A stretch of 64,000 bases of DNA from an uncultured Pseudomonadales bacterium (GCA_964589815.1 CAZPUR010000005.1:7472-71471); one strand, 5' to 3'; positions 274-3,410 are shown, counted from the stretch's first letter. Program-made: numbers and translations. Notes: generated by a model from the letters alone, not told the origin.

Positions 274-294
274 AGCTTAGCAATTTGCTAAGCT
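274..294. promoter_or_regulatory. 20-bp perfect palindrome AGCTTAGCAA-tt-TGCTAAGCT in the hrcA leader (TTAGCA/TGCTAA half-sites, CIRCE-like core)
   Basis: Read directly: agcttagcaatttgctaagct is self-complementary. Its position is approximate within 273-295. Confidence 0.5.
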
Positions 295-298
295 GGTA

Positions 299-325
299 TT
301 AGCACTATTTAACCACGACTGCTAA
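299..325. promoter_or_regulatory. CIRCE operator (HrcA binding site) upstream of hrcA: TTAGCACTA-N9-GACTGCTAA
   Basis: ttagcacta tttaaccac gactgctaa matches the CIRCE consensus TTAGCACTC-N9-GAGTGCTAA at 8/9 + 8/9 positions with the correct 9-nt spacer. It overlaps a candidate leftward promoter (-35 TTGACA = revcomp of 330-335). Confidence 0.7.
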
Positions 326-330
326 AAGAT

Positions 331-410
331 GTCAAGCCCTGAACCATGCGACGCCTGTCATCAGGCTTCACGCCTGACTGACAGGCAGCTTAGGTTCAGG
401 GTCAAGCCCC
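331..410. repeat. Palindromic element copy A: gtcaag + 65-bp unit bounded by 9-bp terminal inverted repeats CCCTGAACC...GGTTCAGGG, with two internal hairpins
   Basis: 340-404 is ccctgaacc atgcgacgcctgtcatcaggcttcacgcctgactgacaggcagctta ggttcaggg. Its reverse complement is identical (1 mismatch) to 3335-3399. The flank gtcaagccctgaacc also occurs at 3329 and 3467. Confidence 0.75.
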
Positions 411-446
411 AAAACCACCTTCCTCTTTATCTACTATAGGATACTC

Positions 447-474
447 TTGACAAACCCCATCTTTGTGCTATAAT
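447..474 (+). promoter_or_regulatory. Sigma-70-type promoter for the M23 peptidase gene (TTGACA - 16 nt - TGcTATAAT, extended -10)
   Basis: ttgaca at 447-452 and tataat at 469-474, preceded by tgtgc. The TTG codon at 463 that opens the predicted ORF lies inside the promoter spacer, so the real start is downstream. Confidence 0.55.
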
Positions 475-537
475 CCTTGTGTTCTCTCCAAAAAACATGG
501 AGAGAATTTTTTTATCGGGCCTGAATTAAGCCCAATT

Positions 538-1224
538 ATGAATAAAAAGCTATGGCTATTTTTATCTATTGCCGCCAATATTTTTTGGCAAACAATAGGA
601 TTTTTCTTGGCTGCTTTTTATCTTTTCTATCGCTTCTTTTTTCCTCAAATTGAAGGCAGCCATCCTTTGTCTAAAGTCTTCAGAAAAGTTTTCGAGCAGA
701 AAAAAGCCCAAGTTTTTTGGGGTATTGGTTTATTGGTTTTAATTTTATCAGGCCAACTTTTCTCTCGTCCGTTTTCTGTTCAAGCCCAATTTGAACCTGA
801 ACCAGTCTTGGTTGTTTCTCAGGAAGTGATCACTACGGAAACTACTTTTCAAAAACCGACTCAAGGTTGGTTTTCCCAAGGTTTCTCTTGGTATCATCAG
901 GCTGTCGATTTAGGCGCTCCTTTAGGAGAAAAAGTTTACCCCATTGGCTCTGGTAAAGTCATCACCATCAAATATAGTCAATGGGGTTATGGTCACTTTG
1001 TGGTCGTGGAACATGAAATGGGTCTCAAATCTTTATACGCCCATTTAGGAGAAATTAAAGTTAAACCAGGCCAAAAAATCGATAAGCAGACTTTACTGGG
1101 CTTTATTGGTTTAACCGGCTATACTACCGGTCCCCACCTTCACTTAGAAGTTTATGGTGATGAAGGTTATCTTAACCCGGTCGATCTGGTGCCTGGGATT
1201 TTACCTCAATTTGCCTATAAGTAA
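538..1224 (+). CDS. Peptidase M23 (LytM-type peptidoglycan endopeptidase) with N-terminal TM anchor
   Basis: Motifs HQAVDLGAPLGEKVYPIGSGKV ... GHFVVVEHEMG ... TGYTTGPHLHLEV (HxxxD and HLH M23 signatures). The ORF track begins at 463 (TTG), but a promoter at 447-474 argues for the ATG at 538 (MNKKLWLFL..., TM helix). Confidence 0.85.
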   Translation: MNKKLWLFLSIAANIFWQTIGFFLAAFYLFYRFFFPQIEGSHPLSKVFRKVFEQKKAQVFWGIGLLVLILSGQLFSRPFSVQAQFEPEPVLVVSQEVITTETTFQKPTQGWFSQGFSWYHQAVDLGAPLGEKVYPIGSGKVITIKYSQWGYGHFVVVEHEMGLKSLYAHLGEIKVKPGQKIDKQTLLGFIGLTGYTTGPHLHLEVYGDEGYLNPVDLVPGILPQFAYK

Positions 1225-1311
1225 ATAAACCCAGCCTTTCGCAAAAGGCTGGGTTATTCTTAAATCTTATTTTTCAGTTTTGAGTTTTGCGATTTGAGTT
1301 TTGAACTTTTA

Positions 1312-2940
1312 TTACATTCCCATGCCGCCCGGCATACCGCCAGCTGGCATTCCCGGAGCTGCATTTTCTTTTTCTGGTAAATCAGTGATCAAAGCCCCTG
1401 TAGTTAAAATCATGGCCGCGACAGAAACCGCGTTTTCCAAGGCCAATCGAACCACTTTAACCGGATCAATCACTCCTAATTGAAGCATATCACCGTATTT
1501 TTTCTTAACCACGTCATAACCTTGAGAAAGTTTGGTTTTTTCTTGAACTAACTTTTGAAAAACTTCACTCCAGTTGGGCGTAGCATTAGACAAAATCCCT
1601 ACTGCTGGCGCCGTCAAAGCGGTATATAAAATCTGCCAACCGCTAGTTTCAAATTCGCCTTTTTGGGTTAAAACTTCTCTCGCTCTTAAAAGAGCAATAC
1701 CGCCGCCAGGAACAATGCCTTCTTCAATGGCGGCTTTGGTAGCGGCCACCGCATTTTTAACCCGGGATTTTTTCTCTTCCATTTCTGTTTCTGAGGCCGC
1801 CCCAACCTCAATGATTGCTACTCCGCCAGCTAATTTAGCCAGTCTTTCTTCAAGTTTTTCCTGATCAAATTCAGAATCACTCACTTCCATTTCTTTTTTA
1901 ATTGAAGCAATCCTGGCCTGGATGGCTTTTTTATTACCTTGGCCGCCAATAATACGGCAGTTTTCTTTATCCGCCCAAACTTTGTCTGCCTGGCCGCAGT
2001 CTTCTGGTTGGACTGAATCTAATTTTCTGCCCGTATCTTCGGAAATCACCGTGCCGCCAGTCAAAATGGCAATATCTCCCAGCATTTCTTTGCGGCGGTC
2101 GCCAAATCCAGGCGCTTGAACCGCCAAAACTTTAAAAGCGCCTCTTAATTTATTAACCACTAAAGTAGCTAAAGCTTCGCCTTCAATTTCATCAGCAATA
2201 ATGACTAAATTTTTGGAAACTTTAACCACATTTTCCAAAAAGGGTAAAAAGTCAGCCACTGAAGAAATTTTCTGGTCAGTAATTAAAATATAAGGGTCTT
2301 CGATTTCTGCTTCCATGGAGTCGGCGTCAGTGACAAAATAAGGTGAAGCATAACCTTTATCAAATTCCATTCCTTCTTTGTAATCAATGGTTACTTCCAA
2401 TCCTTTGCCTTCTTCTACGGTCACTACCCCATTGGGGCCAACTTTTTTTAAGGCTTCGGCAATTTTTAAGCCGATTTCCGTATCTTGAGCCGAAATATTA
2501 GCTATCTGCTCAATCACTTCATCTGTTTTGACCGGCTTAGCCATTTTGTTAATTTCTTTAATCACGGCTTCGGCTCCGCTCTCTAGTTCTTTGCGGATGG
2601 CCATCGGGTCAGCCCCTTTGGCTAAAGCGGCCATACCAGCATTAACAATTTCTGAGGTCAAAACGGTAGCGGTAGTAGTGCCGTCGCCAGCCTTATCCGA
2701 AGTTTTCTCGGCTGCTTCTTTAGTTAATTGAGCTCCCATATTCTCAAAAGGATCTTCTAGCTCAATTTCTTTAGCCACGGTCACACCATCATGAGTGACA
2801 TTGGGCGCGCCCCATTTTTTGTCTAAAGCTACATTTCTGCCTTTAGGACCAAGGGTGGTGCCCACTGCTTGAGCAATTTTATTTACTCCAGCTACCAGTG
2901 ATTTCCTAGCATCATCATTGTATTTCAATTGTTTAGCCAT
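1312..2940 (-). CDS. groL: Chaperonin GroEL (Cpn60)
   Basis: [37 protein letters not shown]... through to the C-terminal GGM repeat ([14 protein letters not shown]); 542 aa. Confidence 0.97.
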
Positions 2941-2946
2941 TTTTAT

Positions 2947-3243
2947 TTACCTCCTAAGAATCGCTAATATATCTTCAAATTTAACAAATAAATATTCTTT
3001 TTCACCAATACCCAATTTAACTTCATCGCCGCCCCATTTTTTATAAATCACTAAATTGCCTTTTTTACAAGGAGCGGTTCTTTTTTTAGTATCTGGACCC
3101 ACTGCCAGAACTTTAGCTTCTTGGGGTTTTTCATCATGAGAATCAGGTAAATAAATGCCTGAAGCAGTTTTCTTTTGAGCTTTGACCGGTTCTAATAAAA
3201 TGTAACCGGCGGTCGGTTGAAGTTTTGAAATCGATGCTGTCAT
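2947..3243 (-). CDS. groS: Co-chaperonin GroES (Cpn10)
   Basis: 98 aa: ...LQPTAGYILLEPVKAQKKTASGIYLPDS...KVLAVGPD...GDEVKLGIGEKEYLFVKFEDILAIL. It ends 6 nt upstream of groEL, with an AGGAGG RBS 8 nt before the ATG. Confidence 0.95.
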   Translation of the reverse strand: MTASISKLQPTAGYILLEPVKAQKKTASGIYLPDSHDEKPQEAKVLAVGPDTKKRTAPCKKGNLVIYKKWGGDEVKLGIGEKEYLFVKFEDILAILRR

Positions 3244-3277
3244 AAAAATGCCTCCTTAATTTTGAATGATGAAAAAA

Positions 3278-3298
3278 TGCTATCAGTTAATGATAGCA
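3278..3298. promoter_or_regulatory. Palindromic operator-like site TGCTATCA-gttaa-TGATAGCA overlapping the predicted groES transcription start (non-canonical CIRCE; AGCACT half-site adjacent)
   Basis: tgctatcagttaatgatagca is a perfect 8-bp inverted repeat with a 5-nt spacer, lying between the -10 and the groES RBS. A CIRCE-like left half (tAGCACT) sits beside it, but no GAGTGCTAA right half is present. Confidence 0.5.
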
Positions 3299-3304
3299 AG
3301 TGCT

Positions 3305-3333
3305 ATTTTAAAAATAAAGAGCTTGTTTGTCAA
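3305..3333 (-). promoter_or_regulatory. groESL promoter (minus strand): -35 TTGACA (3328-3333), 17-nt spacer, -10 TAAAAT (3305-3310)
   Basis: The minus strand reads TTGACAaacaagctctttattttTAAAATagcacttgctatcattaactgatagca....AGGAGGcatttttATG. The -35 is formed by the gtcaag flank of palindromic element copy B. Confidence 0.6.
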
Positions 3334-3410
3334 GCCCTGAACCTAAGCTGCCTGTCAGTCAGGCATGAAGCCTGATGACAGGCGTCGCATGGTTCAGGGC
3401 GCAAACCACG
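3329..3410. repeat. Palindromic element copy B (the same 65-bp TIR-bounded unit as 340-404, with the interior in inverted orientation)
   Basis: 3335-3399 is ccctgaacc taagctgcctgtcagtcaggcatgaagcctgatgacaggcgtcgcat ggttcaggg, the reverse complement of copy A with 1 mismatch. A third partial copy (gtcaagccctgaacc) lies at 3467-3481. Confidence 0.75.

What the first reader, a model, noticed from the sequence alone, without database searches (positions are those of the whole stretch)
274..3410. Both heat-shock operons (hrcA and groESL) are preceded by the same 65-bp TIR-bounded palindromic element in opposite internal orientation, each donating the -35 TTGACA; hrcA has a canonical CIRCE, groES a different palindrome
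Copy A (340-404) and copy B (3335-3399) are reverse complements of each other (1 mismatch). Both are flanked by the same direct gtcaag motif. In both cases the motif ttgtcaag supplies a leftward -35 TTGACA 17 nt from a -10: TAAAAT for groES, TTAAAT for hrcA. Downstream of the hrcA promoter sits a near-perfect CIRCE (TTAGCACTA-N9-GACTGCTAA). Downstream of the groES promoter sits a different perfect palindrome (TGCTATCA-N5-TGATAGCA). The element has 9-bp terminal inverted repeats and two internal hairpins. It could be a shared upstream regulatory module, a small RNA or terminator-like structure, or a MITE-like insertion that landed in both orientations. The two copies also bracket the M23-groEL-groES segment in inverted orientation, which would allow inversion of that 3-kb segment by homologous recombination.
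Basis: seen in the sequence. Interest (0 to 1): 0.6.

Follow-up and report, generated by a model that had tools for sequence, protein, structure and literature searches.

The report
Small hairpin transposon inside two heat-shock promoters
Two copies of a 65-base hairpin-forming mobile DNA element have landed exactly in the -35 boxes of the hrcA and groES heat-shock promoters of an uncultured Patescibacteria bacterium; the promoters pre-date the element, so it is a tolerated insertion of a probably undescribed small transposon family, not a heat-shock control module.

Summary
Two 65-nt copies (337-401 and 3335-3399) are reverse complements with one mismatch. Each abuts a TTGACA-17-(-10) promoter. 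hrcA has a 16/18 CIRCE.

- **The -35 is not donated.** Relatives with the same groES-groEL-M23-hrcA synteny lack the element but keep the same TTGACA, spacing and CIRCE.
- **Copy A is a clean insertion.** It is flanked by a duplicated TCAAG, which is the CTTGA of the -35.
- **The groES upstream block is inserted material.** Positions 3335-3528 hold B plus two other hairpin units, bounded by CTTGA copies.
- **The family occurs elsewhere.** Copies with an invariant 24-nt core, a co-varying outer stem and a constant 65-66 nt length occur in other Patescibacteria. They sit at a tRNA-Gln 3' end, in a tRNA D-loop and in a 23S-5S spacer, two of them with 4-bp target duplications.
- **The groES palindrome is not a separate operator class.** It overlies a degenerate CIRCE.
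- **No further support for the other readings.** I found no inversion isomer, no Rfam match and no transposase in the window.

Best reading: a MITE-like fold-back element with target preference for, or survival at, CTTGA. This is a new member of a known kind and of moderate interest.

The parts
337..401 (+). Copy A of the 65-nt fold-back element. The 'alpha' orientation (CCTGTCATCAGG...CCTGACTGACAGG) reads on the + strand. It has 9-bp terminal inverted repeats CCCTGAACC/GGTTCAGGG.
   Evidence: (83 bits)
332..336 (.). TCAAG, the promoter-proximal copy of the target duplication of copy A. It equals the CTTGA of the hrcA -35 (TTGACA 335->330).
   Evidence: empty-site alignment
402..406 (.). TCAAG, the distal copy of the target duplication of copy A.
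3335..3399 (-). Copy B of the element, with alpha orientation on the - strand (the sense strand of the flanking genes). It has a 10-bp terminal repeat if G3400 and C3334 are counted.
   Evidence: (83.7 bits)
3328..3334 (-). CTTGACA: the groES -35 (TTGACA 3333->3328) and the right-hand CTTGA copy abutting copy B.
3400..3465 (-). Unit D, a different 66-nt hairpin between B and the internal CTTGAC. Its ACAACTCCTTTCTGTAA motif recurs upstream of hrcA in L018 and L022.
3466..3471 (.). Internal GTCAAG (CTTGAC) copy. Read on the - strand, TTGACC (3470->3465), 17 nt and TGTAAT (3447->3442) give a promoter-like site pointing into copy B.
   Evidence: the promoter reading is inference
3472..3528 (-). 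Unit C, a 57-nt diverged hairpin unit. It has the same GGTTCAGGG end and a truncated other end. It contains a 15-nt tandem duplication. Its interior is homologous to a hairpin upstream of hrcA in L018.
   Evidence: D19; score 37 against shuffles 17 +/- 2.3, maximum 28
3529..3533 (.). Left-most TCAAG (CTTGA) copy. It contains the TGA stop of the cytidylyltransferase gene. It is the probable left edge of the whole inserted block 3335-3528.
   Evidence: by comparison with L003, where the groES -35 overlaps the end of the same gene; inference
299..325 (-). CIRCE operator of hrcA, TTAGCAGTC-GTGGTTAAA-TAGTGCTAA (16/18). It covers the promoter spacer and the -10 TTAAAT (312->307).
   Evidence: same layout in L003, L005, L007, L014, L016, L018, L022, L024
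3278..3306 (-). groES operator region. It holds the perfect palindrome TGCTATCA-N5-TGATAGCA (3278-3298) plus a T-run. This overlaps the degenerate CIRCE ATAGCACTT-GCTATCATT-AACTGATAG (3306->3280). The -10 TAAAAT is at 3310->3305.
128..296 (-). hrcA 5' leader. It has the hairpin CCAGCTTAGCAAaTTGCTAAGCTGG (272-296) followed by a long AU-rich hairpin. The true hrcA start is ATG 127->125.
   Evidence: (relatives are 243 aa)
2947..3243 (-). groES (98 aa).
   Evidence: Cpn10
1312..2940 (-). groEL (542 aa).
   Evidence: Cpn60_TCP1
538..1224 (+). M23 peptidase (228 aa), with its own promoter at 447-474 and a conserved leader hairpin at 481-507.
3529..4014 (-). Cytidylyltransferase-like gene (161 aa) upstream of groES.

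Best explanation
Copies A and B are two recent copies of a 65-66 bp non-autonomous fold-back transposable element of the MITE kind. Each consists essentially of two ~30-nt inverted ends joined by a 5-nt loop. The host is a Patescibacteria (CPR, Microgenomates-like) genome.

Each copy inserted into the CTTGA of a pre-existing sigma-70-type -35 box, one at the HrcA/CIRCE-controlled hrcA promoter and one at the groES promoter. The 4-5 bp target duplication rebuilds TTGACA next to the untouched spacer, -10 and operator. The promoters therefore stay intact and the insertion is tolerated. What changes is the DNA upstream of -38, now a GC-rich palindrome. At groES, the 3' end of the upstream transcript also changes and now carries stable hairpins.

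Shown:
- the repeat itself;
- the empty sites in relatives;
- the flanking duplications;
- family members at unrelated loci in other Patescibacteria.

Inferred:
- transposase-mediated cut-and-paste or copy mobility by an enzyme encoded elsewhere;
- the invariant core as that enzyme's binding site;
- near-neutrality for heat-shock regulation.
For: 1. **Near-identical copies.** The two copies differ by 1 nt, have perfect 9-10 bp terminal inverted repeats and are 58-60% GC inside ~25-35% GC spacers.
2. **Empty sites.** L003, L005 and L007/L008 (HrcA 67-73% identical, same synteny) lack the element. They keep cTTGACA, the CIRCE over the -10, and at groES GGGCTTGACA-17-TAAAAT/TTAAAA. The window-to-L005 alignment shows conserved backbone on both sides of a ~70-nt gap.
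3. **Target duplications.**
   - Copy A: TCAAG|A|TCAAG.
   - L010 copies: CCAG|a|CCAG and TCTA|b|TCTA.
   - That is 3 of 5 sites, against about 1/256 per site by chance.
4. **Family members at other loci.** The core scan returned hits only in Patescibacteria apart from two chance hits in coding sequence. The real hits were L009, L010 (two copies) and L012. They sit at a tRNA-Gln 3' end, in a tRNA D-loop and in a 23S-5S spacer. None is a heat-shock gene.
5. **Architecture typical of IS ends.** The CCC tip is conserved. The internal block CCTGTCA(G)TCAG is invariant. Positions in between vary but match between the two ends. Length is constant at 65-66 nt.
6. **Recombination between copies.** L009 is a hybrid of L010a and L010b with the intervening DNA deleted, as expected for recombination between dispersed repeat copies.
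7. **Survival bias towards promoters.** Only 15 of 171 CTTGA sites in the window are intergenic. Several of those are -35 boxes, so survivors of a CTTGA-targeting element are expected at promoters.
Against: - No autonomous element or transposase was found. Twenty unassigned ORFs in the window gave no transposase or integrase Pfam hit.
- Only 2 full copies are visible in ~71 kb of this genome. Genome-wide copy number is unknown.
- Copy B and the L012 copy lack a clean duplication.
- The most conserved part is the interior, not the tips. Length and a bulged base are conserved across very distant lineages. This is unusual for decaying MITEs and hints at a structure-specific partner or a host function.
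- Under a simple CTTGA-target model, both insertions landing in the two HrcA-regulon promoters has only a few percent chance.
- The paired C-to-A and G-to-T changes in L010a keep the hairpin intact. This could mean selection on the structure.
Confidence: 0.6

Rival explanations
1. It is a host-maintained structured repeat of the REP/REPIN/BIME kind. The hairpin would be kept because, as RNA or single-stranded DNA, it stabilises or terminates upstream transcripts and insulates the heat-shock promoters from read-through. A dedicated domesticated enzyme would spread it.
For: - The length, the bulge and a 24-nt core are conserved across Microgenomates-like, Saccharibacteria and other Patescibacteria.
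- Compensatory changes occur, including within one genome (L010a against L010b).
- Every copy that lies in a transcribed context has the same (alpha) orientation on the sense strand: B, L010a, L010b and L012.
- Hairpin units C, D and B cluster in tandem like a BIME.
- Very stable folds: RNA -45 kcal/mol, DNA -23 kcal/mol.
Against: - Flanking duplications are present, whereas REPINs make none.
- There is no GTAG-type REP head.
- The element is absent from the closest relatives at the same sites, so it is not needed there.
- No U-tract follows the hairpin.
- Copy A lies between divergent promoters, where no transcript is expected.
- Four same-orientation cases have a two-sided chance of 1/8.
Confidence: 0.15
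2. It is a structure-specific recombination substrate, analogous to attC or IS200/IS605 ends. The folded single strand (outer stem, unpaired spacer, inner stem with an extrahelical base, loop) would be recognised by a tyrosine or HUH recombinase. That enzyme would insert it at sites resembling GGGCTTGAC.
For: - The folded architecture mirrors attC: R box, unpaired spacer, L box with an extrahelical base, terminal loop, ~65 nt.
- All four GGGCTTGAC sites in the window are element junctions.
- Three successive junctions read GGTTCAGGG|CTTGAC.
Against: - The R'/R'' consensus (RYYYAAC/GTTRRRY) is not met in any subfamily.
- There is no cassette array and no integrase or HUH gene in the window.
- The two orientations occur at equivalent targets, which argues against strand-specific insertion.
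- The L010 target sites (TCTA, CCAG) are unrelated to GGGCTTGAC.
Confidence: 0.1
3. The element would be a shared cis-regulatory module of the heat-shock regulon that supplies the -35 and co-regulates hrcA and groESL.
For: Both copies sit in the identical register next to the -35 of the two HrcA-type promoters, and no other copy occurs in 64 kb.
Against: - Eight related hrcA promoters and two related groES promoters work from the same -35, -10 and CIRCE without it.
- Internal orientation is opposite at the two promoters.
- Family members elsewhere are at tRNA and rRNA loci.
Confidence: 0.05
4. It is an invertible-segment system. The two inverted copies would mediate flipping of the 2.9-kb M23-groEL-groES segment as a regulatory switch.
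For: There are 65-bp inverted repeats, 98% identical, 2933 bp apart. A Logan contig of 3014 bp ends inside both copies.
Against: - Contigs from samples 3300031551, 3300031554 and SRR9706179 all show the same arrangement, which equals that of relatives.
- Both promoters travel with their genes, so inversion would not switch expression.
- Contig breaks at repeats are an assembly effect.
Confidence: 0.03
5. It is a small RNA gene or ribozyme encoded by the hairpin.
For: The fold is stable and co-varying. A CUGAUGA string is present on one strand. A promoter-like TTGACC-17-TGTAAT points into copy B.
Against: - No Rfam family matches, even at E<=10.
- There is no GAAA or stem II as a hammerhead would need.
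- No conserved promoter or terminator flanks the copies.
- Copy A has no plausible promoter.
Confidence: 0.03

Closest known systems
Bacterial MITEs, in particular Neisseria Correia elements (CREE) and other fold-back MITEs (RUP, ERIC, Nezha). From general knowledge, not tested against their sequences.
   Same: It is small and non-coding, with terminal inverted repeats and short target duplications. It is intergenic, folds into a long hairpin and often lies next to promoters or at 3' ends of genes. It is present or absent between related genomes.
   Different: It is much shorter (65-66 nt against 100-155 nt for Correia). The duplication is 4-5 bp rather than TA. The -35 is not carried by the element but regenerated from the target. 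The interior rather than the tip is the invariant part. The family is confined, as far as seen, to Patescibacteria. No sequence similarity to anything in Rfam, plasmid or phage collections.
REP / REPIN / BIME elements with RAYT transposases
   Same: These are hairpin-forming extragenic palindromes, clustered in tandem with other hairpin units. They persist over the long term and show compensatory evolution.
   Different: Flanking duplications are present here. There is no GTAG head, no RAYT has been seen, and copy number is unknown.
Integron attC sites
   Same: The folded single strand has an outer stem, an unpaired spacer, an inner stem with one extrahelical base and a terminal loop. The length is ~60-70 nt.
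   Different: It has no RYYYAAC/GTTRRRY boxes. It is not in same-orientation arrays bounding cassettes. No integrase was found.
CIRCE/HrcA operator (TTAGCACTC-N9-GAGTGCTAA)
   Same: The hrcA operator matches 16/18 and overlaps the -10, as in all relatives examined. HrcA is encoded next to it.
   Different: This is the pre-existing regulatory system into which the element inserted, not the element itself. The groES site has only a good left half (7/9) and a weak right half (5/9). A perfect 8-bp palindrome overlies it.
IS1380-family ends (CC tips, 4-5 bp duplications). Recalled from the ISfinder family table; a lead only.
   Same: The ends begin with CC(C) and the duplication is 4-5 bp.

Membership tests
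MITE (non-autonomous TIR element) | Small size and no coding capacity | tested here: met
   The element is 65-66 nt, and the whole length is stem-loop.
MITE (non-autonomous TIR element) | Terminal inverted repeats | tested here: met
   The repeats CCCTGAACC/GGTTCAGGG are perfect (10 bp in copy B). The ~30-nt ends are imperfectly inverted.
MITE (non-autonomous TIR element) | Target-site duplication flanking each copy | tested here: met
   Copy A has TCAAG, L010a has CCAG and L010b has TCTA. Copy B (TTGC against TTGA, with nested units next to it) and L012 have none that is recognisable.
MITE (non-autonomous TIR element) | Empty orthologous sites in related genomes | tested here: met
   L003, L005 and L007/L008 lack it at both promoters, with conserved flanks.
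MITE (non-autonomous TIR element) | Many dispersed copies within one genome | tested here: inconclusive
   There are 2 copies plus relics in ~71 kb of the source genome and 2 copies in 3.5 kb of L010. The whole genomes were not available.
MITE (non-autonomous TIR element) | A cognate autonomous IS with the same ends | not testable with these tools
   No transposase hit among 20 window ORFs. The rest of the genome could not be searched.
REP/REPIN | Insertion without target duplication, and a conserved GTAG-type REP head | tested here: not met
   Duplications are present at 3 of 5 sites, and there is no GTAG head.
REP/REPIN | A linked RAYT (Y1 HUH) gene in the genome | not testable with these tools
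   None among the window ORFs scanned. The genome is incomplete.
Integron attC | R''/R' core sites RYYYAAC ... GTTRRRY | tested here: not met
   The window subfamily has only AAC/GTT within CCTGAAC/GTTCAGG. L010 (GAAGT/ACTTC) and L012 lack even that.
Integron attC | Same-orientation arrays bounding cassettes, with an intI nearby | tested here: not met
   The copies are inverted around housekeeping genes, and no integrase hit was found.
CIRCE/HrcA operator (hrcA promoter) | A 9-bp inverted repeat with a 9-nt spacer matching TTAGCACTC-N9-GAGTGCTAA, overlapping the promoter of a chaperone operon, with hrcA present | tested here: met
   Positions 299-325 match 16/18. Eight relatives have the same layout. 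HrcA gives a Pfam hit.
CIRCE/HrcA operator (groES promoter) | The same consensus downstream of the groES -10 | tested here: inconclusive
   Left half 7/9, right half 5/9 (3306->3280). L003 has 14/18 at the same place. L005 resembles the window. HrcA binding was not tested.
Known RNA families (Rfam 15), including the hammerhead | A covariance-model match | tested here: not met
   No hit at gathering score, and none overlapping the element core at E<=10.

The most novel reading that the evidence does not exclude
The 65-66 nt hairpin is not a decaying MITE. It would be a Patescibacteria-wide, structure-defined element. Its invariant 24-nt inner stem with a bulged base would be the recognition site of a dedicated, still unidentified enzyme acting on folded single-stranded DNA or RNA. 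That system would direct insertion into safe havens such as -35 hexamers, tRNA trailers and loops, and rRNA spacers. This would be a new kind of long-lived mobile or domesticated repeat in ultra-small genomes.
Probability: 0.15. Interest if true: 0.7.

Novelty: new member of a known kind. Interest (0 to 1): 0.4.

Why it matters
Four points follow.

- **A warning against a tempting reading.** A repeat shared by two co-regulated promoters looks like a regulatory module. Here, comparison with relatives shows it is a passenger.
- **A neat mechanism for surviving in a promoter.** The target duplication rebuilds the -35 hexamer. In a genome that is ~91% coding, -35 boxes become some of the few tolerated landing sites for a CTTGA-targeting element.
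- **Little prior description.** My two literature searches found no description of small mobile repeats in CPR/Patescibacteria. A family with an invariant core shared by distant lineages would be a handle on their mobilome and on horizontal exchange between these episymbionts.
- **A practical effect on assembly.** Such repeats break assemblies. A Logan contig ends in both copies.

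Tried and rejected
- **Known RNA families.** Rfam at gathering score over the whole window, and at E<=10 over 100-3700, gave nothing relevant. 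ARAGORN found no tRNA in the window.
- **Hammerhead reading of CUGAUGA.** There is no GAAA and no stem II. The string is simply the complement of TCATCAG in the palindrome.
- **Kink-turn (C/D box) reading.** The stem is fully Watson-Crick with a single bulge.
- **attC membership.** The core-site consensus is absent.
- **Two small hairpins instead of one long one.** In L012 the small-hairpin pairing is lost, while the long stem keeps compensated pairs (GGC/GCC, GGA/TCC, GAA/TTC).
- **Chance hits.** L011 (Solibacillus) and L013 (Promineifilum) lie inside coding sequence, lack the outer stem, and about 3.5 such hits were expected by chance.
- **Other collections.** Viral contigs, plasmids and phages gave no match.
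- **Diverged copies.** Covariance model R1 over 165 kb of window and loci found no additional diverged copies.
- **Inversion isomers.** A small-flank lookup showed only the one arrangement, in three assemblies.
- **Transposase or integrase in the window.** None among 20 unassigned ORFs.
- **Closer relatives of the source organism.** The best non-self HrcA is 73% identical, so no strain-level presence/absence test was possible.
- **More distant relatives.** L014-L018, L022 and L024 have lepA-hrcA synteny. They inform only on the hrcA promoter, not on groES.
- **Unresolved.** I could not reconstruct the order of events that produced the C-D-B cluster.

Full report
**1. What is in the sequence**

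The window starts inside hrcA on the minus strand. The true start is ATG 127->125: relatives are 243 aa, and the 266-aa JGI gene call is 23 codons too long. The gene order that follows is:

- an M23 peptidase, 538-1224 (+);
- groEL, 1312-2940 (-);
- groES, 2947-3243 (-);
- a cytidylyltransferase-like gene, 3529-4014 (-).

An identical JGI contig (L001) shows that grpE-dnaK-dnaJ follow hrcA. HrcA homologues place the organism in the Patescibacteria (CPR). The best named hit is Candidatus Beckwithbacteria at 63% identity, and the best non-self hit is 73% identical.

The repeat is real.

- Arms 336-401 and 3335-3400 are 98% complementary.
- CCCTGAACC-N47-GGTTCAGGG matches only 337-401 (copy A) and 3335-3399 (copy B), with none expected by chance.
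- The two copies are the most stable 70-nt folds in 64 kb: -44 and -46 kcal/mol, against a mean of -10 +/- 4.7.
- As RNA their z-scores are -7 to -8. As DNA they fold at -23 and -25 kcal/mol.
- They are 58-60% GC inside spacers of about 25-35% GC.
- No other copy exists in the window.

The promoters and operators are as described.

- hrcA has TTGACA (335->330), 17 nt, then TTAAAT (312->307).
- groES has TTGACA (3333->3328), 17 nt, then TAAAAT (3310->3305).
- CIRCE is at 299-325 and matches 16/18.
- The palindrome TGCTATCA-N5-TGATAGCA is at 3278-3298.

**2. The -35 boxes are older than the element**

Three relatives share the groES-groEL-M23-hrcA synteny: L003/L004, L005/L006 and L007/L008. None has the element. 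All keep the same promoter layout.

| Promoter | Locus | Sequence upstream and through the -35 |
|---|---|---|
| hrcA | L003 | AAGGCCTTGACA-AATAA-TTAGCACTC... |
| hrcA | L005 | CAGACCTTGACA... |
| hrcA | L007 | GAGGGTTGACA... |
| groES | L003 | GAGGGCTTGACA-17-TTAAAA |
| groES | L005 | TTGGGCTTGACA-17-TAAAAT |

Five more distant relatives have lepA-hrcA synteny: L014, L016, L018, L022 and L024. They also have cTTGACA followed by a CIRCE over the -10.

A global alignment of the hrcA-M23 spacer with L005 shows conserved backbone on both sides: TTTGTCAA.AGTATCCTAT... on one side and ...TTGACAT..TTTAGCAGTCGTGGTTAAATA on the other. Between them is a ~70-nt gap exactly where copy A lies. The element therefore did not donate the -35.

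**3. Anatomy of the insertions**

Copy A is flanked by TCAAG at 332-336 and 402-406. Read in promoter orientation, the sequence is GGGGC-TTGA-[element]-C-TTGA-CATC. The duplicated bases are the CTTGA/TTGA of the -35 hexamer, and the promoter-proximal copy completes TTGACA.

At groES the situation is nested.

- In L003 the groES -35 overlaps the last codons of the cytidylyltransferase gene (...GAG GGC TTG ACA AAA TAA).
- In the window the same gene ends ...TTA TCT TGA|ACC. A left CTTGA copy thus sits at 3529-3533 and supplies the stop codon.
- Between that copy and the CTTGACA of the live promoter (3334->3328) lie four pieces:
  - unit C (3472-3528). It has the same GGTTCAGGG end, a truncated other end and a 15-nt tandem duplication;
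  - a third CTTGAC (3466-3471);
  - unit D (3400-3465), an unrelated 66-nt hairpin;
  - copy B.
- The interior of unit C is homologous to a hairpin upstream of hrcA in L018. The local alignment score is 37, against shuffles at 17 +/- 2.3 with a maximum of 28.
- Unit D's ACAACTCCTTTCTGTAA motif recurs upstream of hrcA in L018 and L022.

I infer repeated insertions at the same CTTGA. I could not reconstruct their order.

All four GGGCTTGAC sites in the window are element junctions.

**4. The family elsewhere**

One scan of each large collection with the core gave real hits only in Patescibacteria.

- **L009 (metagenome contig):** one copy.
- **L010 (a Patescibacteria MAG):** two direct copies.
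- **L012 (a Saccharibacteria MAG):** one copy.
- **L011 and L013:** chance hits inside coding sequence.

The contexts are unrelated to heat shock.

- L010a abuts the 3' end of tRNA-Gln(CUG). Its first three bases, CCA, double as the encoded CCA end.
- L010b splits the D-loop of a second tRNA, with TCTA on both sides.
- A GIY-YIG ORF lies between the two L010 copies.
- L009 is a hybrid of L010a and L010b with the intervening DNA deleted.
- The L012 copy lies in the 23S-5S spacer, inside a partial 5S duplicate next to an intact 5S.

All copies are 65-66 nt long and share one architecture:

- an outer stem;
- an asymmetric internal loop;
- an inner stem, CCTGTCA-TCAGnn paired with nnCTGA-C-TGACAGG, with a bulged base;
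- a 5-nt loop.

Conservation and covariation across the copies:

- Eleven of the 13 inner-stem pairs never vary.
- The loop-proximal pairs change on both sides: GGC/GCC, GGA/TCC, GAA/TTC.
- The outer stem differs between lineages but stays paired: GAACC/GGTTC, GAAGT/ACTTC, GGTATCA/TGATACC.
- L010a differs from L010b by a paired C-to-A and G-to-T change.
- On the model-fitted alignment 94% of cells pair and 4 pairs change on both sides. The sample is only three lineages, so this is suggestive rather than statistical proof.
- Template-switch correction of quasi-palindromes could produce the same pattern without selection. This last point is my own reasoning.

**5. Best explanation**

The element is a MITE-like fold-back element: two ~30-nt inverted ends and a loop. 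This reading accounts for:

- the terminal repeats;
- the 4-5 bp duplications at 3 of 5 sites;
- the empty sites in relatives;
- the two orientations;
- the unrelated insertion contexts;
- recombination between copies.

The conserved CCC tip plus the conserved internal block fits the usual two-domain layout of IS ends, a cleavage tip and a binding block. That layout is general knowledge, not something tested here.

Why promoters? The window is 90.7% coding. Only 15 of 171 CTTGA sites are intergenic, and several of those are -35 boxes. An element that duplicates (C)TTGA rebuilds the hexamer. Such insertions are therefore among the few that are both possible and harmless.

Both hits being in the two HrcA-type promoters still has only a few percent probability under this simple model. 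An extended target such as GGGCTTGAC, or some local effect, may contribute.

Likely consequences (all inferred):

- The region upstream of -38 is replaced by a GC-rich palindrome.
- At groES, transcripts reading in from the purine/cytidylyltransferase genes acquire three stable hairpins just before the promoter. These may stabilise 3' ends or damp read-through.

**6. The groES operator**

On the sense strand the site reads ATAGCACTT-GCTATCATT-AACTGATAG (3306->3280). The left CIRCE half matches 7/9 and the right half 5/9. The perfect 8-bp palindrome and a T-run overlap it. L003 has ATAGCACTT-GATTTTAAA-AACTGCTAA (14/18) at the identical position. L005 resembles the window: TGCTGTCA-N5-TGATAGTA.

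The 'different palindrome' most likely evolved in place from a CIRCE. Whether HrcA still binds it is untested.

**7. Rivals**

- A host-maintained REP/REPIN-like structure (0.15) is kept alive by the deep conservation of length, bulge and core, and by the uniform sense-strand orientation of transcribed copies.
- A structure-specific recombination substrate (0.10) is suggested by the attC-like fold and the repeated GGGCTTGAC junction. The attC core sites are absent, and both orientations occur.
- The shared heat-shock module (0.05) is contradicted by the relatives.
- The inversion switch (0.03) has no support. Three assemblies from two JGI samples and one SRA run show one arrangement.
- A small RNA or ribozyme (0.03) has no Rfam support.

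**8. Novelty**

My literature searches found no description of MITEs in CPR/Patescibacteria. No sequence match turned up in Rfam, plasmids or phages. The family is probably undescribed, but the kind of element is known.

Limits on this conclusion:

- Copy number in the source genome is unknown.
- No mobilising enzyme was found.
- The comparative sample is small.

Noticed in passing
window 447-537 (+): The M23 peptidase gene has a consensus promoter (TTGACA-16-TATAAT). Its leader carries a terminator-like hairpin, GTTCTCTCC..GGAGAGAAT, plus a T7 run (481-514). A second hairpin, GGGCCTGAATTAAGCCC, lies just before the ATG. The leader is about 90% conserved in L003, L005 and L007, although the proteins are only ~70% identical. 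There is no Rfam match. It is a candidate attenuator or small RNA.
   Followed up: partly
window 128-296 (-): The hrcA 5' leader is ~170 nt long. A 5'-proximal hairpin (272-296) contains TTAGCA/TGCTAA half-sites. A long AU-rich hairpin follows (z -5.8). A 50-nt stretch is almost identical in L022 and partly present in L018, but the leader is absent from L003, L005 and L007. It is a candidate RNA thermometer or regulatory leader of the dnaK operon.
   Followed up: partly
window 3442-3470 (-): The displaced -35 copy TTGACC, 17 nt and TGTAAT form a promoter-like site pointing into copy B and the groES promoter.
   Followed up: no
window 12993-13043: Another GC-rich hairpin (-29 kcal/mol) lies in the AT-rich spacer between the radical-SAM and DJ-1 genes. 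It is unrelated in sequence to the element.
   Followed up: no
window 50281-50350: A strong hairpin (-35 kcal/mol) lies inside the 935-aa ORF 48988-51795, which has no Pfam hit.
   Followed up: no
L002 (Logan SRR9706179_596290): This 3014-bp contig spans window 341..3354 exactly, so it ends inside both inverted copies. That is an assembly break at the repeat, not evidence of inversion.
   Followed up: yes
L001 13048-13848 / window 1-196: The JGI gene call for HrcA is 266 aa. All relatives are 240-246 aa, so the real start is 23 codons downstream.
   Followed up: yes
L010 1716-2263: Two different tRNA-Gln(CUG) genes lie side by side. The second is split in its D-loop by an element copy. A GIY-YIG ORF (1879-2142, Pfam 8e-17) lies between the copies and ends at a TGA inside the element.
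   Followed up: partly
L012 1184-3041: The Saccharibacteria rRNA operon has a group-I-intron-like insert in the 23S (below Rfam's gathering score: 40 bits against 50). A diverged partial 5S duplicate carrying the element lies upstream of the intact 5S.
   Followed up: no
L005 6950-7070: The groES leader of this relative is ~130 nt longer than in the window and contains its own GC-rich hairpin (CCCTCCGACGTAACATCGGAGTG). Heat-shock leaders and upstream regions in this clade seem to collect hairpin insertions.
   Followed up: no
window 33596-48772: The rnpA/yidC-dnaA-dnaN region with a 502-nt gap (33596-34097) looks like the replication origin, ~30 kb from the heat-shock locus. A type IV secretion-like cluster (TraG/VirB4-like, PrgI) occupies 36.9-48.8 kb. 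It includes a '23S rRNA intervening sequence protein' gene at 40693-41070.
   Followed up: no
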